Shown here: piece after piece, positions 1-9,078 of the stretch
Layout of the letters: every line of letters starts with the position of its first letter
Numbering within the stretch: position 1 is the first letter of the stretch
Source of the DNA: Promethearchaeota archaeon
Lineage (GTDB): Archaea > Asgardarchaeota > Odinarchaeia > Odinarchaeales > JBHLKK01
Assembly (NCBI GenBank): GCA_048939465.1
Contig: JBHLPL010000076.1
Span: 1-9,341, forward strand
Direction: 5' to 3'
DNA length: 9,341 nucleotides
Notes under the pieces: model-generated
Told to the model about the DNA's origin: nothing
Seen by the model: the letters and a program-made list of their open reading frames with translations, nothing else
Database searches by the model: none
Position numbers and translations under genes: made by a program

Positions 1-1201
1 GTTTTCGGACAGAAGGCTTTTCTTTTAGCGGTTTCCTCATAATGAACAAGTACTTAAACCCTCGCAGATAGAAATTAAATCTTCTCGCCCGACCGTACCA
101 TAAACCAGTATGGGAAGTCTGCCCCCTTCTGGTTACGCAAACTGTATCTACGGTCTCGAAATATCTACACAGTCTTCTGTATACCTCGAAACCAACTGGT
201 GTGAATCTTTTCTTGACCCATTGATCGCCTATCAGCCATCCTAATACCTTTCCTCTCTTTAAGATTCTGTGGCACTCTTTCATTACTTTCTCAAGTTCAT
301 CATAAAACTCCTTTTTCTCACTTGAAATCTTACCAATACAATCCTGATGTTCATTATACCTAATATTGTCTCCATATGGTGAATCCACAAAAATCATGTC
401 GGCACTCTCGTCGTCAAGCGGAATACTCCTGGCGTCGTTTTGTCTAATATCGGGCCGGACAGGAGCTATATCATATCCAATAACTTTTCTCTTTTCTTCT
501 TTACAAACATCTATCGTCGTGCCGCTTCCACACATGGGGTCTACAACTAGGTCTCCAGGATCAGTATACCTCCAAATCAGGTTGTAGATTATTAAGGCAG
601 GCGTTACTCCCGGATACTTGTTATCCCCCTTGGGCGTGATACCGTAACTTTGCTTTGGAAAATCCCAAAGGTTTGTGGCCTCAATGAGAGGAATCTCTTC
701 TTCGATGTCTACTTCTTTAATCTTTTTTCTGATCTTCTTTTTCAGTTCGGAAAGTTGGCGAATGGATTCCTTGTCTTGCGCTTTTTGTGCTGTATTTAAT
801 AATGTAGAAGCAGGTATGAAGAGATCCAGAAAACTGTCCAATTTCCTGCCAAACAACGGATTGCTTCTCTTTATTCTAAATCTAGTTAGGATTCTCTTTG
901 CATCATTTAGCCTTATTTTCTCCCCAAGAACTTCAACCTTCACTTGATATGGGTATTTTCCATTCCATGCGTCAGGTTGAACATTTAGATCTCCATTTGA
1001 AACAGCTTTGAAAACCCCATATAAGGAGTCTGTGTCCAGATTGTTTAGAAAAAGAAGATCTCCTCTCCTTATTCTAATAACAATTGGACCATAGGCTCTT
1101 CCGGTCCCAAATAATGACCTTCCGAGGCACTCATCTTCAGTTTTTGTAGTGCAGGCAAAAATGAAGCCACGAATTAGTTGCTCCTTTTGTATCTCTTTCA
1201 T
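1..1201 (-). CDS. DCD (EVE/PUA-like) domain fused to a SAM-dependent amino-methyltransferase (N4/N6 DNA MTase-like); 3' end truncated by the window edge (at least 400 aa)
   Basis: Manual translation: ATG at 1201 with GGGAG 8 nt upstream, open to base 1. The N-terminus MKEIQKEQLIRGFIFACTTKTEDECLGRSLFG...IRRGDLLFLNNLDTDSLYGVFKAVSNGDLNVQPDAWNGKYPYQVKV matches the DCD pattern (GFIFxC, TxxEC, LFG, LFL, GVFxA, NIxPxA, F/YPxQV). It is followed by a basic linker, then LWDFP...YPGVTP...LIWRYTDPGDLVVDPMCGSGTT (motifs X-I, D221), MIFVDSPYG (motif IV, D273, 374-385) and KYLFIMRK near the edge. It is absent from the ORF track because there is no stop in the window. Confidence 0.9.
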   Translation of the reverse strand, partial: MKEIQKEQLIRGFIFACTTKTEDECLGRSLFGTGRAYGPIVIRIRRGDLLFLNNLDTDSLYGVFKAVSNGDLNVQPDAWNGKYPYQVKVEVLGEKIRLNDAKRILTRFRIKRSNPLFGRKLDSFLDLFIPASTLLNTAQKAQDKESIRQLSELKKKIRKKIKEVDIEEEIPLIEATNLWDFPKQSYGITPKGDNKYPGVTPALIIYNLIWRYTDPGDLVVDPMCGSGTTIDVCKEEKRKVIGYDIAPVRPDIRQNDARSIPLDDESADMIFVDSPYGDNIRYNEHQDCIGKISSEKKEFYDELEKVMKECHRILKRGKVLGWLIGDQWVKKRFTPVGFEVYRRLCRYFETVDTVCVTRRGQTSHTGLWYGRARRFNFYLRGFKYLFIMRKPLKEKPSVRK

Positions 1202-1416
1202 TGAGTGTTCTCCCGTTAGAATATTTCTGAGCTCATTCTAATGTTCCTTGGATGGATATATTACCATACCATATTTCTTTTATAAGCATGATGAGGAGTA
1301 GCTATTGCGGTATGAAATCATTCGAATAGGTAGTTGTTTTTTTCTTTTGCTGCTTGTCTCCTTGCCTTTTTATATTTGCTTTAAGAGAATATAATGAGAA
1401 GGTCTAGTGTGGGAAT

Positions 1417-1665
1417 TTGATGAGGGTTTTTGAATTTATTCCAGGGAATTTGCTAGGGTGTGATATTAAGATAGAGCAAATAATGAATTCTGACGAATTC
1501 AAGTGTGGTGGCTGCAATTGGAAGACTGGCCGGTTTTTTGTGGCTGCTGAGTCTGAGGAAGAAGCCATAGACCTACTAAAACGCGGCGATGCAGGTATGT
1601 GTGCTGAGTGTTTTGCCAAAATGCTAACTGAAGAGAAATGGGAACTCTTCGAACCAGAAATATGA
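1417..1665 (+). CDS. Small putative zinc-binding protein (CxxC-x29-CxxC), 81-82 aa
   Basis: ORF contains FKCGGCNW and GMCAECFA with a helical EEEAIDLL segment between them. It sits alone in the gap between two minus-strand genes. ATG at 1420 follows TTG at 1417. Confidence 0.7.
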   Translation: MMRVFEFIPGNLLGCDIKIEQIMNSDEFKCGGCNWKTGRFFVAAESEEEAIDLLKRGDAGMCAECFAKMLTEEKWELFEPEI

Positions 1666-1789
1666 GAGGAGACCTGAAAGCATCTGCTGAGATAATATGT
1701 TCAATAATATTCAGTGAATTTGAAAACAAATGAAGTTTGAGTCGTTTCTGAGTTACTATGTCATGAGTTCTTTTTTCAATGTCGGCTGT

Positions 1790-3373
1790 TTAATCTATGA
1801 ATTCTCTTTTTGTCTCACAGGGCTTGACATCTATCAAAACCGGGTGTTTGAACTGAGGGGATATTGCCAAAGCCTGCCCCACACTGAGAGCTGGAACTGC
1901 CGACCATATTTCTTCAATGACCCCACCAGTGGTATCCTTTATTGCATTGATATTTCCCCGACTCTTGATTGAGTGAACAATCCTCGTGTTGCATAACTCA
2001 AATATCTCCTGTGGTAGATGAGAAGGTTGTTGAGAAATAAACCCCAAGCATAGCCACCTTTTTCTGCCTCGTCTAGCAATTATCTTTAACATATCTATGG
2101 TAGAAGTCATCTTGTCTCTGGCTTCTCTGCTAATGAAAGTATGCGCTTCTTCGATTAACAGGAGAGTTTTTGGAGTTTTATCTGGAGCTTCCAATTTTCT
2201 CAGGAATATCTTTCTCAAAATAGATGCTATTACTACATTTTTGACATAATCACTGCTACTGCTTACATCGATAACACTGACCTTTCCTGGTTCTAACAGT
2301 TCATTTACGTCTATCTCACCCACATCCCTGTCGAATATCCCCAGTCTTTCAAGTTGTTTTATCTTGCCTACCAGCGCATAACCTGTTGCCTTCACAATCT
2401 TTCTATCATTTATCATTGAAAACAGTGTCTTCGTTGCTTCCCCAATTGTGTAGTCGTGCTCTTCAAAACTCGTTCCTTCTATGAATTGAACGGCCTTGCT
2501 CTTCTTCTTCGCAGTCTTCTTCTTCTTTTCTAATTCGTCCACCAGATTACTTAAACCCCTTTGCTGAGGCTCTGTAGCTTGTACTAGTTCAAAAAGAACA
2601 TAGAGATCGACACTGCTGAACTTTATGTCAAATTTCCTGGCACCTCTTCTCTTTTTGCCGTCTACCAATGGAACATCGCCACAGCACGGATAGTATACTG
2701 AAAAATCGGATAAACCATTAGGTCTCCTCTTGTATTTCTTTAGTTTTTCTATCAGCTCCTTAGTCGGATTATCCATCCCGACATATTCGCCTTCAACATC
2801 CACAACTATGACGGCATACTCTGCTTTACTTGCCTCCTCGATAATCACTTGCGCTGTGTTGGTCTTCCCTGATCCTACAGTTCCGAAAATTCCTATGTTT
2901 CTGGGTAGTACTTTCTTGTTTTGACTGTTAAGATAGATGTCTGCCTGGTCATAACCCACTATTTTTCCCATATATAGATCTCCTTCGACGCCTATCAATT
3001 CGCTGACTTCTTTTTGCTCCAACTCTGCAACTTTAGACTTTGGTGTTGGTCTAGTATTTGTTGCAACTAGCCTATTATCGACGAGTTCTCCAAAAATCTC
3101 TATACGACCCAGTGCGTAGTAATTAGGCGTTACAGGGAACTGATCGCCTTTAATTATAGTGGTCTGGGCCACTGCAGAATCTCTTCCAACCTCTTCAGGA
3201 ATATAGAACGGCCCTTCCACAACCCGTCCAATGAATGTTTTTCCATCACCTTCGATCTTTACGTATCTATTACGTAACACGGCCGAGATTTTGTCTCGGT
3301 CGACTAGAAATTCAGAGATATTATTAGGTAAACCAGATCTATCAAAATGGATGTGCCCGATCATAATCCTCAC
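1790..3373 (-). CDS. herA: HerA-family (FtsK/HerA superfamily) ATPase / DNA translocase with an N-terminal HAS-barrel-like region
   Basis: Walker A GTVGSGKT, VIVVDVEGEY strand, Walker B LLLIEEAHTF, arginine-finger region IARRGRKRW, and FISQQPSHL motif. Beta-rich N-terminal ~120 aa. GTG at 3373 overlaps the upstream TGA (GTGA); an alternative ATG at 3364 follows GGTGAGG. Confidence 0.93.
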   Translation of the reverse strand: MRIMIGHIHFDRSGLPNNISEFLVDRDKISAVLRNRYVKIEGDGKTFIGRVVEGPFYIPEEVGRDSAVAQTTIIKGDQFPVTPNYYALGRIEIFGELVDNRLVATNTRPTPKSKVAELEQKEVSELIGVEGDLYMGKIVGYDQADIYLNSQNKKVLPRNIGIFGTVGSGKTNTAQVIIEEASKAEYAVIVVDVEGEYVGMDNPTKELIEKLKKYKRRPNGLSDFSVYYPCCGDVPLVDGKKRRGARKFDIKFSSVDLYVLFELVQATEPQQRGLSNLVDELEKKKKTAKKKSKAVQFIEGTSFEEHDYTIGEATKTLFSMINDRKIVKATGYALVGKIKQLERLGIFDRDVGEIDVNELLEPGKVSVIDVSSSSDYVKNVVIASILRKIFLRKLEAPDKTPKTLLLIEEAHTFISREARDKMTSTIDMLKIIARRGRKRWLCLGFISQQPSHLPQEIFELCNTRIVHSIKSRGNINAIKDTTGGVIEEIWSAVPALSVGQALAISPQFKHPVLIDVKPCETKREFID

Positions 3374-4437
3374 CTTCTTCTCGTACGTGTTTCTTCAATT
3401 TCGCTTCCAAGGACTGAGGGATGTACTTTCGCCATCTTGAACTCAATCTTTCTTCTAAAATCACCAGCAGCCAGAAGCTTGGAGCAGATTGCGTCAGCAT
3501 AATCTATTAACATCGGGAAACCCCGTAGAGATTGGTAGCTAGAGTCTTGAATTATGAGGGCTGCAGCCTTATCAAAAACATCTTTGTGAGCCTCGAATAC
3601 GTAGGGCTTATCCCCCACCTTGTATAGGCCAATCTTAATCTTGGATACCGATTTATCCCCGAAGTCCTTCATCATTTCTTCATCTTCTTTCTTAAAATGG
3701 GCCTTCTCGAGATAGTCATCCCACTCGGCAATTAGTGAGCCGCAATCCATATATTCGAACCTATCAAGAACCTCTCCGGCATTTAGCAGATTCAGTCTTC
3801 GTGTACTTGATATTACTCCAATGACATTCGTTGCTTCGACGAGTTCCTCTGCTAATTCAAGTGAAACCTCCAACGCATCTTTGTACTTTTTGAATCTGCC
3901 TGTCCTGAGTTCGAAAGGTATTAGGGGACCATGGACAAATTTCCACTTTTCATCTCTCTGCAATACTATGTTTCTTTCCTCAAATAGCATAATGGCTCTA
4001 AGCAGTATGTTTGTCATATCATGATCCTTGAGTAGATTAGAAAAATGCTCCATAGCTGTCTTCGACTCTTCTGCGAACTTTCTTTCTGATATGAAAATAA
4101 CACGTTCTACTCTATCGTTTCTGTAAGATGTCGCTACAACACCAATTCTGCATCTGGTGCCGGTAGCCATGTTGTAGTTCGAAATAGTCCCATCCACAGC
4201 ACACACATTCGATTTGAATAACTCATTCTTGGCCCACTCTAGATCTTCTTTTGAGGGAGTCTTAATTCTTTTTTTAAAATTGGGATCTGACAATAGTTCC
4301 TTCTTCAGTTGTCTCTTTCTTTCAACAGAATCCTTGATGTCTTGTTCAATAATCTTGTCAGATTTCTCCAAGTAACCCTCGAAATTCGACCAATCTTTAG
4401 AGTATACGAGGTCTCTAAAGCTTTTGCGACTCCCCAT
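3370..4437 (-). CDS. nurA: NurA-family (RNase H-like fold) nuclease, 355 aa
   Basis: VCAVDGT (D82), MLFEER, KFVHGPLIP, IGVISST and C-terminal GFPMLIDYADAIC match the NurA layout, and the gene is directly upstream of herA. I prefer the ATG at 4437 (MGSRKSF), preceded by GGGGGGT, over the track's TTG at 4485. Confidence 0.85.
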   Translation of the reverse strand: MGSRKSFRDLVYSKDWSNFEGYLEKSDKIIEQDIKDSVERKRQLKKELLSDPNFKKRIKTPSKEDLEWAKNELFKSNVCAVDGTISNYNMATGTRCRIGVVATSYRNDRVERVIFISERKFAEESKTAMEHFSNLLKDHDMTNILLRAIMLFEERNIVLQRDEKWKFVHGPLIPFELRTGRFKKYKDALEVSLELAEELVEATNVIGVISSTRRLNLLNAGEVLDRFEYMDCGSLIAEWDDYLEKAHFKKEDEEMMKDFGDKSVSKIKIGLYKVGDKPYVFEAHKDVFDKAAALIIQDSSYQSLRGFPMLIDYADAICSKLLAAGDFRRKIEFKMAKVHPSVLGSEIEETRTRRR

Positions 4438-4483
4438 GCGACCCCCCCATAATCTAGTAGTTAATAGATATGTGAGAACAATC

Positions 4484-4499
4484 AATATAAGATTTACCG
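4484..4499 (-). promoter_or_regulatory. Putative BRE/TATA promoter for nurA-herA
   Basis: Minus strand cggtaaat-CTTATATT, about 50 nt upstream of the ATG at 4437, inside the 154-nt intergenic gap, with a G-rich SD downstream. Confidence 0.4.
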
Positions 4500-4591
4500 A
4501 CGAAAAGTATAGAATTCAATTTCAAACTTGGATGAGCCTTTTTGGAATCTTTCTTAACATTAACACCTAGGAAAACTCAAGATTGAAGGTC

Positions 4592-6358
4592 TCATATCAA
4601 TCTGTGGAAACCAATTTCAACGTTTCCGTCCTTTATTCCCCTTCTCTCAACATCACAAATGAAATCTTCACTGAAGCCCGATTTTAGATAGCTCATAAAG
4701 GTCCGACCAAGGGCACCCAGAATTGCGATGGCTCCAAGACCTGAAACATTATAGAAGCAACCCCTCATTCTCATCCTAAAACCTCTTTTTAGATCTTCGT
4801 TCACTCCTTCTGTGAAGAAATATCTGTACTTGGCCCCCCCACCGGACCAATATTCCTTTCCGGAAAAGAATCCGATTGCACTTGAGGGCCTTAACGCCAA
4901 TAGAACATCAGCGATAATCTTGTCCAATCTGTGGACCCTCCAGTGCTCTGCGATTTCATCTTCCATTTTTGCCTCGTACCTGTGTAGGGGATCAAATGCA
5001 TCTACTAGGCCGTACCATGCAGAAATTATGAAAAGCTTTAGTCTGCCTTCTCGGATTGAGCCCAAAACGTCGTTGAGGTCAAATTGCCTGTAGATGGTTC
5101 CTTTGTAGAGGTGAATTGCCGAAGTCTTAGGAGAATTAAGATCTATATCAACATCACTTCTTTCAGCAGCTATTCTATCCATCCCGTTCCTGCCCTCCAT
5201 CAATAGATTCCATGCGTATGGTAACTCCTTTTCTGTCAAACCTCTCCCTTCTTCCTCGATGCGTCCGGATGGATTTTTCGTCTTACAGCAAGGGATGAAA
5301 CAAACAACACGGGGTCCTGCAGCCCTTCCCCTGTCCCCTCCCGATACTGGAGAAATCGATTTTGCCAGCTCTCTATCCACGATCTGTTTGAATTCCGATA
5401 TCTCCTGAGATGTCAAGATTCTTGAGCTATCTACGTACTGTGAATTCCATAACCCCGATCTTCTTACCTTTTCTTTGGGTGAAAGGTGGCCAAGCCAATT
5501 GGGAGAGGGCGTGATCTGAGAGCATTTTGCCAAAGTGGCTATTAGTCTTTCCTCGAGGTTTCTCCTATCTTTGTTGGACTCAACTGTTATGCAACTAAAC
5601 GTGAACCTTTCCTTCAACACCTTGCTTACTTCTTTTTCAATCTCAGGGAACGTAGGTGCATTCTGTGTATCCCACTGTTCAAGTCTGGGATCGTTAAGAT
5701 ACTTCCTTCTGGTCAGGACCCCACCTAAACGCATGCGAAATATACTTGAGTTTTTGTTTCCTCTAAAATGATGCCGGATTCTTCTCCTGAAGTTGTCCTG
5801 TTTACTATTAGTTCCGACTCGCACAATCCTTCGGTAGATTATACCATCGATTCTACAGCGTTCCCCATTCTCAAAGAAAAAATAAATTCCATTCTCTGGA
5901 AGTCTATTCTCTGGTGTTCTAGAATCATAGACCGGGAGTTTTTCAACTGTTTTGTGAATCTCTTCACATATTCTATTGATTTCAGTTTGCGTGGTTAAAT
6001 CTCTTTTATCTTCTGGTAGTGGTTTGGCTTGAGCAATAAATCGTTCTTCTCTAGAGATCAACTTGACGGCAAGACGCAGTTTTCCGGAAATTGCTAGCCG
6101 AAATTGTGAGTCTCCGCAATCTTTCATGACATTGTAACTGAGTAGAATTCTGCCCAAAGATTTTGCATGCGCCATTCCTCCGAGTCTAAGTCCTTGTTTG
6201 GAAATCTCTACGATTCCATGCCAGCTACCTCTTTTACCATAATTCTGCAAATCAGAAACATCCAGGCTGCTGCTTAATCCCGTCTCAAATGCTTCATTAA
6301 TTAGTCTCTTGACAGAGTCTAGTCTTCCTTTCCAGTACTTGTCATATTTACTCCCCAT
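4592..6358 (-). CDS. Multidomain protein: unknown N-terminal domain + GIY-YIG-like nuclease + YaaA/DUF6884-like C-terminal domain (588 aa)
   Basis: NGIYFFFE (G157)...IVRVGT (R180), FRRRIRHH, NLEERLI and GLWNSQ fit GIY-YIG catalytic positions. From aa 351, VVCFIPCCKTK...AIHLYKG...LFIISAWYGLV...LHRYEAKM fits the YaaA/DUF328/DUF6884 pattern. ATG is preceded by GGGGAG. Confidence 0.8.
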   Translation of the reverse strand: MGSKYDKYWKGRLDSVKRLINEAFETGLSSSLDVSDLQNYGKRGSWHGIVEISKQGLRLGGMAHAKSLGRILLSYNVMKDCGDSQFRLAISGKLRLAVKLISREERFIAQAKPLPEDKRDLTTQTEINRICEEIHKTVEKLPVYDSRTPENRLPENGIYFFFENGERCRIDGIIYRRIVRVGTNSKQDNFRRRIRHHFRGNKNSSIFRMRLGGVLTRRKYLNDPRLEQWDTQNAPTFPEIEKEVSKVLKERFTFSCITVESNKDRRNLEERLIATLAKCSQITPSPNWLGHLSPKEKVRRSGLWNSQYVDSSRILTSQEISEFKQIVDRELAKSISPVSGGDRGRAAGPRVVCFIPCCKTKNPSGRIEEEGRGLTEKELPYAWNLLMEGRNGMDRIAAERSDVDIDLNSPKTSAIHLYKGTIYRQFDLNDVLGSIREGRLKLFIISAWYGLVDAFDPLHRYEAKMEDEIAEHWRVHRLDKIIADVLLALRPSSAIGFFSGKEYWSGGGAKYRYFFTEGVNEDLKRGFRMRMRGCFYNVSGLGAIAILGALGRTFMSYLKSGFSEDFICDVERRGIKDGNVEIGFHRLI

Positions 6359-7051: not shown

Positions 7052-7105
7052 AAACACTAACAAAAAACTCACAAAGTTTTTTAGTGTTGATTCTGTAGTT
7101 AGTTG
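7052..7105 (+). repeat. Conserved upstream element, copy 1 (before zinc-ribbon paralog 1)
   Basis: aaacactaacaaa...caaagttttttagtgttgattctgtagttagttg. 7072-7105 is nearly identical to 8638-8672. Perfect inverted repeat AACACTAA (7053-7060) / TTAGTGTT (7081-7088). Confidence 0.8.
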
Positions 7106-7124: not shown

Positions 7125-7514
7125 TTGAGTACACGTGATAGAAAAGCCAGTGGTGTCATAGGTGGCTTGATGATACTCTTATTATTGGCACTTTACGGAT
7201 TCAGGTTTATTTCACGAATATTCGAATCGATTTCATTCGAAGTTATCTCCGTGTTCTTCATTTTTTTTGGCCTGGTGGGCATAATAATCTTTGGTATGTA
7301 CAGGTCTTCATCAAGACTAGCAGAGGTAGATGAACCTATGGATGATCCTACCACTAGCCCTGTTTACCACGAGGAATCAGCCCCCAAAGACTTCCAGTCA
7401 AAAACGCCGATGCTTTCGTGTCCTCATTGCGGTTATGAGAACCCGGCCGATGCTGATTTTTGCATAAGATGCGGTCGAGACCTGGATGTAACAGATGATG
7501 TAGCTCGATATTGA
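7125..7514 (+). CDS. Two-TM membrane protein with C-terminal zinc ribbon (zinc_ribbon_2/DZANK-like), paralog 1
   Basis: Two hydrophobic helices, an acidic/Pro linker and CPHCGYENPADADFCIRCGRDL. TTG start after GGAGGAGGGG. Confidence 0.85.
   Translation: MSTRDRKASGVIGGLMILLLLALYGFRFISRIFESISFEVISVFFIFFGLVGIIIFGMYRSSSRLAEVDEPMDDPTTSPVYHEESAPKDFQSKTPMLSCPHCGYENPADADFCIRCGRDLDVTDDVARY
7414..7480 (+). repeat. Dispersed direct repeat with 8975-9041 (zinc-ribbon coding region)
   Basis: 61 of 67 nt are identical by manual alignment, including an exact 23-mer gatgctgatttttgcataagatg (7449-7471 = 9010-9032). A second exact 15-mer, caggtcttcatcaag, occurs at 7301-7315 and 8862-8876. Confidence 0.9.
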
Positions 7515-8080: not shown

Positions 8081-8144
8081 GAAATAAGATCCTTGAGGTT
8101 GTCCTTCTATTCCTGAGATATAGTCTAAAAGAAATCCAGTTACT

Positions 8145-8183
8145 AAAACACCAGCAAAACAAGATTTGCAAAAATCTTTTTAG
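8145..8183 (+). repeat. Conserved upstream element, copy 2 (before paralog 2)
   Basis: aaaacaccagcaaaacaagatttgcaaaaatctttttag aligns closely with aaaacaccaacaaagcaagatctgcaaagtttttttag at 8614-8651. Confidence 0.75.
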
Positions 8184-8219: not shown

Positions 8220-8597
8220 ATGAGTGATTCTAGTATGAGTGATTCTGAATTGGGGGCTCGGATTGCCCTACGTGTGCTGTTAACACTCGCTCTAGTATCA
8301 TTGGTTGTATTAGCGTTAGGATTAGCAGGTTTACCATGGTTCATCATAGGAGGTATAGCGATGGTTGCAATACTGGTCCTGGCGGCTTCATATCGATTTC
8401 AATTTTCAGTTGAACCTATAATTGAACCTACAACGGGATCCACTCTTGAAGAAGAAGATACATTAGAAGAAAGCAAAATCGAAACGACTGACCAATTGGT
8501 GCCTTCCGAAATCTCTTGTTCCAAATGTGGCTATAAGAACCCAAGTGATGCGCAATTCTGTATAAGGTGCGGTCGGGATCTAGAGGGAAGCCTATAA
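8220..8597 (+). CDS. Two-TM membrane protein with C-terminal zinc ribbon, paralog 2
   Basis: TM hairpin, acidic linker and CSKCGYKNPSDAQFCIRCGRDL. GGGGGAG upstream. Confidence 0.85.
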   Translation: MSDSSMSDSELGARIALRVLLTLALVSLVVLALGLAGLPWFIIGGIAMVAILVLAASYRFQFSVEPIIEPTTGSTLEEEDTLEESKIETTDQLVPSEISCSKCGYKNPSDAQFCIRCGRDLEGSL

Positions 8598-8613
8598 TCT
8601 TCATCCAATTATC

Positions 8614-8672
8614 AAAACACCAACAAAGCAAGATCTGCAAAGTTTTTTTAGTGTTAATTCGATAGTTAGTTG
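8614..8672 (+). repeat. Conserved upstream element, copy 3 (before paralog 3)
   Basis: Its 5' half matches copy 2 and its 3' half matches copy 1. Confidence 0.8.
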
Positions 8673-8679
8673 TGAGGGG

Positions 8680-9078
8680 ATGAGGAGTTTGAGTGAATGG
8701 TATAGAAAAACTGTCAGCATCATTGGTGCTGTGGTGATGCTCCTGGCATTGGCATTTTGTGGATTTATGGCATCGTTGCAAACATTCGGGGAGCCTTTCT
8801 TCACACTTATCCCCGTATTCGTTTTTATATTTGCCCTTCTGGGCTTGCAGGTCTTTGCCCGCAGGTCTTCATCAAGGGAAGCAGAGGTAGCTGAACTTGT
8901 GGCAGATTCTACCCCTGCCCCCTTTTATTATGAGGAAGCAAAACCCGAAGAAGTTGAATCAGAAACACCTATGGTTTCGTGTCCTGATTGCGGTTACGAG
9001 AACCCAGGGGATGCTGATTTTTGCATAAGATGTGGTCGAGATTTAGACATCAAAGATGACACAGCTCGATACCTATAA
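8680..9078 (+). CDS. Two-TM membrane protein with C-terminal zinc ribbon, paralog 3
   Basis: TM hairpin, RRSSSR stop-transfer segment, linker and CPDCGYENPGDADFCIRCGRDL. GAGGGG directly upstream; the TTG at 8689 aligns with the paralog 1 start. Confidence 0.85.
   Translation: MRSLSEWYRKTVSIIGAVVMLLALAFCGFMASLQTFGEPFFTLIPVFVFIFALLGLQVFARRSSSREAEVAELVADSTPAPFYYEEAKPEEVESETPMVSCPDCGYENPGDADFCIRCGRDLDIKDDTARYL

What the first reader, a model, noticed from the sequence alone, without database searches (positions are those of the whole stretch)
1..6358. Candidate undescribed defence/modification island: GIY-YIG-YaaA-like fusion + NurA-HerA + DCD-methyltransferase
Seen in sequence: four co-oriented minus-strand genes, all nucleic-acid enzymes, comprising two predicted nucleases, a HerA ATPase and a methyltransferase fused to a DCD domain. 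Established: HerA ATPases paired with nucleases or other effectors form anti-phage modules (e.g. Sir2-HerA), DCD domains belong with the EVE/PUA-like modified-base readers, and GIY-YIG domains act in restriction and repair. Inference: this is a self/non-self system in which the MTase marks self (or reads foreign marks) and HerA feeds DNA to NurA and/or the GIY-YIG protein. I do not recognise this combination as a named system. Caveat: the genes have separate putative promoters and an opposite-strand gene interrupts them, so they may be independent neighbours in a defence island.
Basis: partly seen in the sequence, partly recalled or inferred. Interest (0 to 1): 0.8.

Follow-up and report, generated by a model that had tools for sequence, protein, structure and literature searches.

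The report
Defence island: three separate nuclease/methylase modules
This stretch of an Asgard archaeon's genome is a small defence island made of three separate parts, and the most interesting is an extra NurA nuclease and HerA motor pair from a family that almost always sits next to a DNA methylase and probably works as an untested kind of restriction system.

Summary
The four minus-strand genes exist and have the predicted domains. They do not form one four-gene system.

1. The DCD-methyltransferase belongs to a very mobile archaeal cassette. It shows 68-78% identity across phyla but was found in only 3 of 151 Asgard genomes. In 5 of 5 other contexts its partner is a BsaWI-type restriction enzyme, a pairing already described by Bell et al. 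2020. Here the contig ends inside the gene, so any nuclease partner cannot be seen.

2. The orphan 355-aa protein has a NurA fold and is translationally coupled to HerA. This is an accessory pair: the genome has a canonical NurA-HerA elsewhere, and the family was found in 1 of 151 Asgard genomes. Across 104 related loci the pair is constant. In 43 of 50 informative loci a DNA methyltransferase from one of three families lies within two genes. The window's methyltransferase type recurs at 4 other loci. This supports a methylation-guarded HerA-NurA restriction module, the methyl counterpart of TdpABC. This scan has noted such methylase-HerA-NurA cassettes before, in over 100 other genomes.

3. 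The DUF7664-GIY-YIG-YaaA fusion is independent. Its orthologues lack these neighbours and mostly sit in other defence islands.

None of this has been tested experimentally.

The parts
2..1201 (-). DCD (EVE/PUA-like) domain fused to an N6/N4-type DNA methyltransferase. DCD is about nt 920-1168 and the methyltransferase core about nt 32-757. The 3' end is cut by the contig end, with about 10-15 codons missing.
   Evidence: Pfam and PADLOC hits. The alignment with homologues shows intact DPMCGSGTT and DSPYGDN motifs. There are 2780 homologues, with more than 120 clusters at 68-76% identity. A BsaWI-family nuclease sits next to it in 5 of 5 other contexts.
1483..1665 (+). Orphan 60-aa ORF with two CxxC pairs (zinc-ribbon-like) on the opposite strand, in the 588-bp gap between herA and the methyltransferase gene.
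   Evidence: Read from the sequence. It has no homologue in any fetched locus or elsewhere in the genome and no Pfam or PHROG family. Whether it is a real gene is unknown.
1790..3373 (-). HerA-like hexameric DNA-translocating ATPase (527 aa).
   Evidence: DUF87/HerA Pfam hit. Walker A and Walker B motifs are present. The closest solved sequences are T. kodakarensis HerA (9x1l, 8.7e-20) and S. solfataricus HerA (4d2i); TdpA matches only weakly at 1.7e-5. A HerA gene follows the NurA-like gene in every locus with room for it except L098, where that stretch holds only short ORFs.
3370..4437 (-). NurA-fold nuclease (355 aa from the ATG at 4437; the ORF is open back to a TTG at 4485). It overlaps the herA start by 4 nt.
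   Evidence: AlphaFold2 model with pLDDT 91. Foldseek top hits are all NurA. Invariant residues D82 (AVDGT), E176, D298, D312 and D315 across 28 homologues. There is no Pfam NurA hit. The family has 314 representative clusters in 1.84 billion proteins.
4592..6358 (-). Stand-alone three-domain protein: DUF7664 (nt 6059-6358), GIY-YIG nuclease domain (about nt 5378-5977) and YaaA/DUF328-like domain (about nt 4595-5329).
   Evidence: Domain evidence. Conserved GIY, R193-x3-H197 and E241 residues. About ten full-length homologues at 34-46% identity. Its contexts lack NurA-HerA.

Best explanation
The region is a horizontally acquired defence island made of three modules.

(A) NurA-like and HerA-like genes form a translationally coupled two-gene operon. 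By analogy with solved HerA-NurA complexes, a HerA hexamer would thread duplex DNA into a NurA dimer, which then degrades it. This step is inferred, not shown. In this protein family the pair is almost always guarded by an adjacent DNA methyltransferase. It therefore most likely acts as the restriction arm of a restriction-modification-like system that destroys unmethylated incoming DNA.

(B) The DCD-methyltransferase is the modification gene of a mobile archaeal Type II cassette whose usual partner is a BsaWI-family endonuclease. In this window it is the only candidate protective methylase for NurA-HerA, and I put about 60% on it serving that role. If a BsaWI-type nuclease lies beyond the contig end, as in the five-gene operons of the relatives L010 and L011, NurA-HerA would plausibly load on the cut ends and shred the restricted DNA.

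(C) The DUF7664-GIY-YIG-YaaA-like protein is an unrelated single-gene candidate defence nuclease. Its YaaA-like domain probably binds DNA and its GIY-YIG domain probably cuts it.
For: Accessory nature of the pair:
- The genome also has a canonical NurA (PF09376) plus HerA pair on contig C116.
- The NurA-like family was found in only 1 of 151 sampled Asgard genomes, and the methyltransferase in 3 of 151.
- The family is scattered over many archaeal and bacterial phyla.

Constancy of the pair:
- A HerA gene follows the NurA-like gene in 89 of 100 loci. Ten of the other 11 end within 300 bp of the NurA gene; L098 has room but no intact HerA ORF.

Link to a methylase:
- Of 50 loci with at least 1.3 kb on both flanks, 43 have a DNA methyltransferase within two genes, and in 40 it is immediately adjacent. 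The families are a 470-aa N6_N4 type (28 loci), C5 (13) and the window's type (2).
- Methyltransferases are 66 of 130 immediately adjacent genes against 7 of 344 genes more than two positions away.
- The partner type follows clades of the NurA tree.

The window's methylase type next to the pair elsewhere:
- L010: overlaps the NurA start, in a five-gene operon with BsaWI and a second methylase.
- L011: five-gene operon with BsaWI.
- L045: follows a truncated ORF that clusters with SecA, then methylase and NurA 25 bp apart, with no REase gene between them.
- L072: the DCD form, sitting where all sister loci carry the 470-type methylase.
- Sources.

Other points:
- The fusion's independence and its defence-island contexts are shown by DrmE, HNH and GHKL neighbours in L006, AAA_15/21 plus a DEAD_2 helicase in L009, and CBASS plus GmrSD in L134.
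- The contig belongs to this genome: a lineage-specific family of membrane zinc-ribbon genes is shared with at least five other contigs, and its composition is within the genome's range.
Against: - Nothing here has been tested experimentally. The restriction function is inferred from gene neighbourhoods and from homology to end-resection enzymes.
- In this window the methyltransferase is separated from herA by 588 bp that hold an opposite-strand ORF, so it is not operonic with the pair.
- In 5 of 5 contexts without NurA-HerA, its relatives pair with a BsaWI-type nuclease. It could therefore belong only to a truncated Type II system.
- At least four informative loci (L012/L013, L016, L053, L110) have the pair without any recognised methylase. 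A Thermoproteota clade links it to Piwi and Cas-type genes instead. The pair therefore does not strictly need a methylase.
- The loci are related to one another, so the counts are not independent events.
- One other locus (L020) has a DUF6884-GIY-YIG gene 1.3 kb downstream of herA. A loose link with the fusion family cannot be fully excluded.
Confidence: 0.6

Rival explanations
1. The modules are independent neighbours. The DCD-methyltransferase belongs only to a Type II system (DCD-methylase plus BsaWI-like nuclease) that is cut by the contig end. NurA-HerA here works without a dedicated methylase, for example by degrading any linear or damaged foreign DNA, or by acting downstream of another sensor.
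For: A BsaWI-family nuclease is adjacent to the methylase in 5 of 5 contexts that lack NurA-HerA, and the published description says the same. In the window a 588-bp gap with an antisense ORF separates the methylase from herA. Loci without a methylase exist, and so do Piwi- or Cas-linked variants of the pair.
Against: The same methylase type is adjacent to NurA-HerA at four other loci that fall at several separate places in the NurA tree. These include L045 (no REase gene between the methylase and NurA on a short contig) and L072 (no BsaWI match on a 13.7-kb contig). Across the family, methylase adjacency is 86% in informative loci.
Confidence: 0.25
2. All four genes form one integrated self/non-self system. 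HerA would feed DNA to both NurA and the GIY-YIG protein, and the DCD-methylase would mark self.
For: The four genes are co-oriented and adjacent in the window. One other locus (L020) has a DUF6884-GIY-YIG gene 1.3 kb downstream of a methylase-NurA-HerA trio.
Against: The three full-length orthologues of the fusion whose contexts I read have no HerA, NurA or this methylase nearby, and neither do two shorter relatives. None of the roughly 100 other NurA-HerA loci except L020 carries a GIY-YIG match. A 150-bp intergenic gap precedes the NurA gene, which has its own G-rich ribosome-binding stretch.
Confidence: 0.06
3. The NurA-HerA pair is a second DNA-repair or DNA-transfer machine rather than a defence module. 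It could be an end-resection paralogue or a DNA import/export ATPase of a mobile element.
For: HerA's closest solved relatives are repair HerAs. The best NCBIfam hit is CedD, a DNA-translocating ATPase, at 107 bits against a cut-off of 600. L012/L013 place the pair among housekeeping genes.
Against: There is no Mre11 or Rad50 in the window. A canonical pair already exists in the genome. The family's distribution is extremely patchy. Its consistent partners are methylases, Vsr, GHKL ATPases, Type IIG enzymes, Piwi and Cas-type genes, not repair or conjugation genes.
Confidence: 0.07

Closest known systems
TdpABC, the phosphorothioate-based defence of thermophiles (An et al. 2025, Nat Chem Biol 21:1160, as cited in PMC12914056; TdpAB structure PDB 8wfd)
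   Same: A HerA-like ring ATPase and a NurA-fold nuclease act as the restriction arm and are guarded by a single DNA-modifying enzyme. TdpB (8wfd_G) appears among the fold matches of the NurA-like protein (E 2e-4). TdpA is a weak sequence match of the HerA (1.7e-5).
   Different: The modification gene here is a base methyltransferase, not the phosphorothioation enzyme TdpC. Both proteins here are closer to repair-type archaeal HerA and NurA than to TdpA and TdpB. The gene order here is NurA then HerA.
Archaeal and Deinococcus HerA-NurA end-resection complex (PDB 2ygk, 4d2i, 9x1l-p, 7f6d; PMC12977600)
   Same: The NurA fold is shared, the HerA sequences are similar, the genes are adjacent and coupled, and the same motor-plus-nuclease mechanism is presumed. 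PMC12977600 discusses a double-strand digestion mode on blunt or short-overhang ends as a possible defence against foreign DNA.
   Different: There is no Pfam NurA match, and a profile comparison with the genome's own canonical NurA is not significant. There is no Mre11-Rad50 linkage. The pair is an accessory, patchily distributed copy beside a canonical pair, and it is linked to methylases.
DCD-methyltransferase plus PD-(D/E)XK nuclease cassettes (Bell, Wolf and Koonin 2020, PMC7641849)
   Same: The window's methylase has the same fusion of an N-terminal DCD domain to a Rossmann-fold methyltransferase. Close homologues are followed by a BsaWI-family PD-(D/E)XK nuclease.
   Different: In the window the nuclease partner cannot be seen because the contig ends, and none is found in the genome bin. 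Here and in L072 the neighbour is NurA-HerA, which that paper does not mention (0 occurrences of HerA or NurA).
PADLOC candidate system PDC-M57 (component B)
   Same: The GIY-YIG domain of the fusion matches PDC-M57B over almost the whole profile (7e-43).
   Different: Component A is absent from the window and from the genome. The window protein carries extra DUF7664 and YaaA-like domains.
MADS (methylation-associated defence system; PMC13662399)
   Same: Defence depends on methylation and includes an ATPase-nuclease module (MAD7-MAD8). The HerA matches the mad8 profile (5.5e-19) and the methylase matches mad2 (1.4e-11).
   Different: MADS is an eight-gene operon with kinase and OLD-like MAD3-MAD4 components. 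None of the other components is present here, and the NurA-like protein matches no PADLOC profile.
SIR2-HerA and DUF4297-HerA anti-phage systems
   Same: A HerA-family ATPase is paired with an effector (PADLOC HerA profiles match at 1e-17 to 1e-28).
   Different: The effector here is a NurA-fold nuclease, not SIR2 or DUF4297. The scores are far below what a member of those families would give.

Membership tests
NurA (Pfam PF09376) / HerA-NurA complex | RNase H-like NurA fold | tested here: met
   AlphaFold2 model with pLDDT 91. The ten best Foldseek PDB matches are NurA structures (2ygk E 2.6e-9, TM 0.53-0.58).
NurA (Pfam PF09376) / HerA-NurA complex | Match to the family's sequence profile | tested here: not met
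   No Pfam or NCBIfam hit. A PDB profile search finds nothing. hhalign against the genome's own canonical NurA gives E 0.29.
NurA (Pfam PF09376) / HerA-NurA complex | Conserved acidic catalytic residues, including the N-terminal D-G-[ST] motif | tested here: inconclusive
   D82 (AVDGT), E176, D298, D312 and D315 are invariant, and H284 nearly so, in 28 homologues. I did not map them onto the active site of solved NurA.
NurA (Pfam PF09376) / HerA-NurA complex | Adjacent, co-transcribed herA gene | tested here: met
   4-nt overlap in the window. HerA follows in 89 of 100 related loci, and 10 of the other 11 are truncated contigs.
NurA (Pfam PF09376) / HerA-NurA complex | Linkage to mre11-rad50 (typical of the archaeal repair operon) | tested here: not met
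   No such domains among the window's ORFs, and none among the recurrent neighbours of the family.
TdpABC | TdpC-type phosphorothioation gene next to the ATPase-nuclease pair | tested here: not met
   The only modification gene in the window is a SAM-dependent methyltransferase. The recurrent partners in the family are methyltransferases.
TdpABC | TdpA-like and TdpB-like proteins | tested here: inconclusive
   TdpB is a fold match at rank 46 (E 2e-4). TdpA is a sequence match at 1.7e-5 with no aligned stretch that passes the threshold on its own. Both are more distant than the repair HerA-NurA proteins.
Type II R-M cassette: DCD-methyltransferase plus BsaWI-family nuclease | N-terminal DCD domain fused to a methyltransferase with intact SAM-binding and catalytic motifs | tested here: met
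   Pfam DCD 2.5e-21 and N6_N4_Mtase 2.1e-24. The invariant motifs are present in the alignment. Identity to cassette members is 69-76%.
Type II R-M cassette: DCD-methyltransferase plus BsaWI-family nuclease | PD-(D/E)XK (RE_BsaWI) nuclease gene immediately downstream | not testable with these tools
   The contig ends inside the methylase gene. No RE_BsaWI match above the cut-off anywhere in the 91%-complete bin. No remnant in the 1202-1789 gap.
PADLOC PDC-M57 | Component B (GIY-YIG protein) | tested here: met
   PDC-M57B 7e-43, covering profile positions 2-209 of 211.
PADLOC PDC-M57 | Component A encoded alongside B | tested here: not met
   No PDC-M57A hit among the window's ORFs or in the whole genome.
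SIR2-HerA / DUF4297-HerA | SIR2 or DUF4297 effector next to HerA | tested here: not met
   No such domain in any window ORF.
MADS | Eight-gene mad1-mad8 operon, including the OLD-like MAD3-MAD4 module and a kinase | tested here: not met
   Only weak mad2 and mad8 profile hits. No other mad profiles match. The composition of MADS is taken from PMC13662399.

The most novel reading that the evidence does not exclude
NurA-HerA of this family is a plug-in DNA-shredding effector that different lineages have wired to alternative self/non-self discriminators. These include three unrelated methyltransferase families, complete BsaWI-type Type II systems, short Piwi proteins and CARF/Cas-type genes. In this Asgard archaeon it would cooperate with the DCD-methylase cassette as an archaeal counterpart of RecBCD-style destruction of restricted DNA. 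This would define an ATP-driven restriction class that has no name and no experimental test.
Probability: 0.35. Interest if true: 0.75.

Novelty: new variant of a known kind. Interest (0 to 1): 0.55.

Why it matters
If the methylase-guarded NurA-HerA module works as inferred, restriction-modification would include a class in which a ring translocase and an RNase-H-fold nuclease degrade unmarked DNA processively. That differs from site-specific cutting by a classical endonuclease. The only studied parallel uses sulfur (TdpABC). It would also give a defence role to the many 'extra' NurA-HerA pairs in archaea and bacteria. Archaea lack RecBCD, and this could explain how they dispose of restricted DNA. 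The family has no Pfam or PADLOC model, so current defence finders miss it. The GIY-YIG-YaaA-like family is a second untested candidate that recurs in defence islands. For this particular window the practical message is more modest: it is a mosaic of separable modules, one of which is already described.

Tried and rejected
- PADLOC, NCBIfam and PHROGs scans of all ORFs gave no named system.
- Rfam and tRNA scans of the window found nothing.
- The sigma-70 promoter and terminator scan was no better than shuffled sequence and does not apply to archaea.
- A search for a degraded nuclease gene in the 1202-1789 gap found nothing.
- A repeat search found no direct or inverted repeats bracketing the island.
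- A search for the missing BsaWI-type nuclease elsewhere in the genome bin gave no credible match.
- I tested for avoidance of WCCGGW or CCGG sites in the genome as a sign of an active BsaWI-like system. Observed-to-expected ratios were 0.93-1.06, which is uninformative.
- Foldseek against the PDB for the whole 588-aa fusion placed only the YaaA-like domain clearly. The GIY-YIG match to R.Eco29kI was weak (E 0.23), and DUF7664 found no convincing structural relative.
- Literature searches found no paper describing a methylase-NurA-HerA defence system.
- I did not run complex prediction. NurA with HerA would pass because it resembles solved complexes, and I make no claim that the methylase or the fusion binds the pair.
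- I considered and rejected the idea that the highly conserved DCD-methylase is a housekeeping enzyme, because it occurs in only 3 of 151 Asgard genomes.

Full report
**What is in the window.**
The window is an entire 9341-bp contig (C147) of a 1.96-Mb, 91%-complete Asgard archaeal genome bin. Four minus-strand genes fill positions 2-6358.

- 2-1201 encodes an N-terminal DCD domain (Pfam 2.5e-21) fused to an N6/N4-type DNA methyltransferase (2.1e-24; PADLOC Type II methyltransferase profiles down to 4e-24).
- 1790-3373 encodes a HerA/DUF87 ATPase (3.6e-25) with intact Walker A and B motifs.
- 3370-4485 has no hit in Pfam, NCBIfam, PADLOC or PHROGs.
- 4592-6358 encodes DUF7664, a GIY-YIG domain (PADLOC PDC-M57B 7e-43) and a YaaA/DUF6884-like C-terminus.

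The contig is probably binned correctly. Its composition lies within the genome's range. It also carries three copies of a lineage-specific family of membrane zinc-ribbon genes that has paralogues on at least five other contigs.

**The orphan gene is a NurA.**
- Ninety-nine homologue clusters were found, none with a Pfam domain.
- An alignment of 28 of them gives invariant D82 (in AVDGT), E176, D298, D312 and D315.
- The AlphaFold2 model (pLDDT 91.3, pTM 0.86) has NurA structures as all of its ten best PDB matches. These are S. solfataricus 2ygk at E 2.6e-9, the T. kodakarensis HerA-NurA complex and P. furiosus NurA. D. radiodurans NurA and TdpB of the TdpAB complex rank further down.
- At sequence level the relation is too remote to detect.
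- The gene overlaps herA by 4 nt. Its likely start is the ATG at 4437, behind a G-run.
- The genome also has a canonical NurA (PF09376) and HerA pair on contig C116. The window's pair is therefore an extra, accessory copy.
- The family was found in only this one of 151 sampled Asgard genomes. It has 314 representative clusters among 1.84 billion proteins.

**Comparative genomics of the pair.**
I collected 25 loci from species genomes, 80 from metagenomes and 4 from protein look-ups. After removing duplicates there were 104.

- A HerA gene follows the NurA-like gene in 89 of 100 loci. Ten of the other 11 end within 300 bp of the NurA gene. L098 has 3.6 kb of room but only short ORFs there.
- Of the 50 loci with at least 1.3 kb on both sides, 43 have a DNA methyltransferase within two genes, and in 40 it is immediately adjacent. 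The families are a 470-aa N6_N4 type (28 loci), a C5 type (13) and the window's type (2).
- Two of the six 'none' loci have a methylase three genes away.
- Within these same loci, methylases make up 66 of 130 immediately adjacent genes of at least 150 aa. They make up only 7 of 344 genes more than two positions away.
- The partner type follows clades of the NurA tree.
- Further recurrent partners are Vsr and a 723-aa double-GHKL ATPase with the C5 clade, a 433-aa GHKL ATPase with part of the N6_N4 clade, and an Eco57I/MmeI-like Type IIG enzyme.
- A Thermoproteota clade instead has a short Piwi protein, a Cas1-like gene and a Cas_APE2256 (CARF-type) gene next to the pair. This recalls the nurA-csm6-herA cluster of Pyrobaculum cited in PMC12977600.
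- The loci are related to one another, so these counts are not independent events.

**The methyltransferase.**
- Its homologues are very numerous: 2780 hits, with more than 120 clusters at 68-76% identity from Nitrososphaerota, Bathyarchaeia, Thermoplasmata and Asgard archaea.
- Only 3 of 151 Asgard genomes have it. This pattern indicates recent horizontal spread.
- In all five contexts examined outside NurA-HerA loci, an RE_BsaWI-family nuclease gene lies directly beside it.
- In the window the gene runs off the contig about 10-15 codons before its end. A nuclease partner, if there is one, cannot be seen. None is in the bin, and the 588-bp gap towards herA holds no remnant of one.

**Is the methylase linked to NurA-HerA here?**
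The same methylase type lies next to the pair in four other loci.

- In L010 (NurA 72% identical to the window's), a DCD-less form overlaps the NurA start. It is part of a tight five-gene operon: 470-type methylase, BsaWI nuclease, methylase, NurA, HerA.
- In L011 the operon is NurA, HerA, a 215-aa unknown gene, BsaWI nuclease, methylase.
- In L045 a truncated ORF that clusters with SecA is followed by the methylase and then NurA, 25 bp apart, with no nuclease gene between them.
- In L072 a DCD-bearing form sits divergently upstream of the pair. Every sister locus has the 470-type methylase in that position, and there is no BsaWI match.

The association is asymmetric. The pair nearly always has a methylase, while the methylase usually does without the pair. 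That is what one expects if the methylase protects against a toxic nuclease module.

In the window, the 588-bp gap with an antisense 60-aa orphan ORF argues against co-transcription. I put about 60% on a functional link here.

**The GIY-YIG fusion stands apart.**
- About ten full-length homologues exist at 34-46% identity. Shorter forms carry only GIY_YIG_3 with a YaaA or DUF6884 domain.
- None of the three full-length contexts contains HerA, NurA or this methylase.
- Four of the six other contexts look like defence islands: DrmE, HNH and GHKL genes in L006; AAA_15/21 with a DEAD_2 helicase in L009; CBASS with GmrSD in L134; and a methylase-NurA-HerA trio in L020. The window itself is a fifth.
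- The GIY motif, an R-x3-H pair (R193, H197) and E241 are conserved. From memory, this resembles the catalytic set of R.Eco29kI, which is a weak fold match.
- The C-terminal domain is YaaA/DUF328-like (Atlas TM 0.80-0.86).
- The PADLOC candidate system PDC-M57 needs a component A that is absent here.

**Mechanism.**
Shown: gene content, the NurA fold, conserved motifs, gene coupling and neighbourhood statistics.

Inferred:
- A HerA hexamer translocates duplex DNA into a NurA dimer, as in the solved repair complexes.
- Methylation of host DNA prevents attack.
- Where a Type II nuclease is co-encoded, its short-overhang ends would be entry points. This fits the double-strand digestion mode discussed for the archaeal complex (PMC12977600).

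The closest characterised analogue is TdpABC, in which a HerA-like and NurA-like pair is guarded by phosphorothioation (An et al. 2025, cited in PMC12914056). MADS also contains an ATPase-nuclease module beside a methylase.

**Prior knowledge and prior notes.**
I found no paper describing a methylase-NurA-HerA system. Earlier reports of this scan describe methylase-HerA-NurA cassettes in more than 100 other genomes and reached the same TdpABC comparison. Those are unchecked notes, not support.

**Verdict.**
The island is a mosaic of three modules: a known DCD-methylase cassette, a member of an unnamed methylase-linked NurA-HerA family that current defence databases miss, and an independent GIY-YIG-YaaA-like candidate nuclease.

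Noticed in passing
window 7125-7514 (+), 8220-8597 (+), 8680-9078 (+); upstream repeats 7056-7105 / 8623-8672 and 8134-8180 / 8603-8649: Three paralogous small proteins with membrane helices and a C-terminal zinc ribbon (C-x2-C ... FCIRCGRDL). Each is preceded by a conserved upstream motif of about 50 nt. Further paralogues lie on contigs C58, C103, C130, C141 and C131 of the same genome. This looks like a lineage-specific expanded family of unknown function.
   Followed up: partly
window 1483-1665 (+): A 60-aa ORF with two CxxC pairs lies antisense between herA and the methyltransferase gene. It has no homologue in any fetched locus or elsewhere in the genome. Whether it is a real gene, for example a small regulator of the methylase cassette, is open.
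   Followed up: partly
L017:5157-9074, L073:680-2927, L074:146-4018, L094:4072-9188, L110:2343-5930, L089:94-3574: In a Thermoproteota clade of the same NurA-like family, the pair is not next to a methylase. Its neighbours are a short Piwi-domain protein (about 400 aa), a Cas1-like gene and/or a Cas_APE2256 CARF-type gene. This suggests NurA-HerA could act as an effector for Argonaute- or CRISPR-linked sensing.
   Followed up: partly
L021:8288-14907, L018:8288-17439 and about 25 similar loci: A bacterial and archaeal clade has a larger conserved cassette: Vsr, C5 cytosine methylase, NurA-like, HerA, a 723-aa protein with two GHKL ATPase domains, a 390-aa unknown protein and sometimes an HNH_2 nuclease.
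   Followed up: partly
L010:1032-6478 and L133:3852-6580: BsaWI-family nucleases are flanked by two different N6_N4 methyltransferases, the 470-aa type and the window's type. The 470-aa type is also the commonest sole partner of NurA-HerA, which hints that the trio arose when NurA-HerA replaced the nuclease of such a cassette.
   Followed up: no
P0005; L006:12141-12497; L007:4873-5256: DUF6979 is fused to the GIY_YIG_3 domain in one homologue (P0005). It is encoded two genes downstream of the full-length fusion in L006 and L007, so it may be a partner of that nuclease family. No DUF6979 match was seen in the window.
   Followed up: no
window 3493-4194 (NurA-like gene): Another first-stage note on this window proposes a His/Asp swap in the NurA active site. 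My alignment shows D312 and D315 invariant and H284 nearly invariant, while H169 is not on the conserved list. I did not map these residues onto solved NurA active sites.
   Followed up: partly
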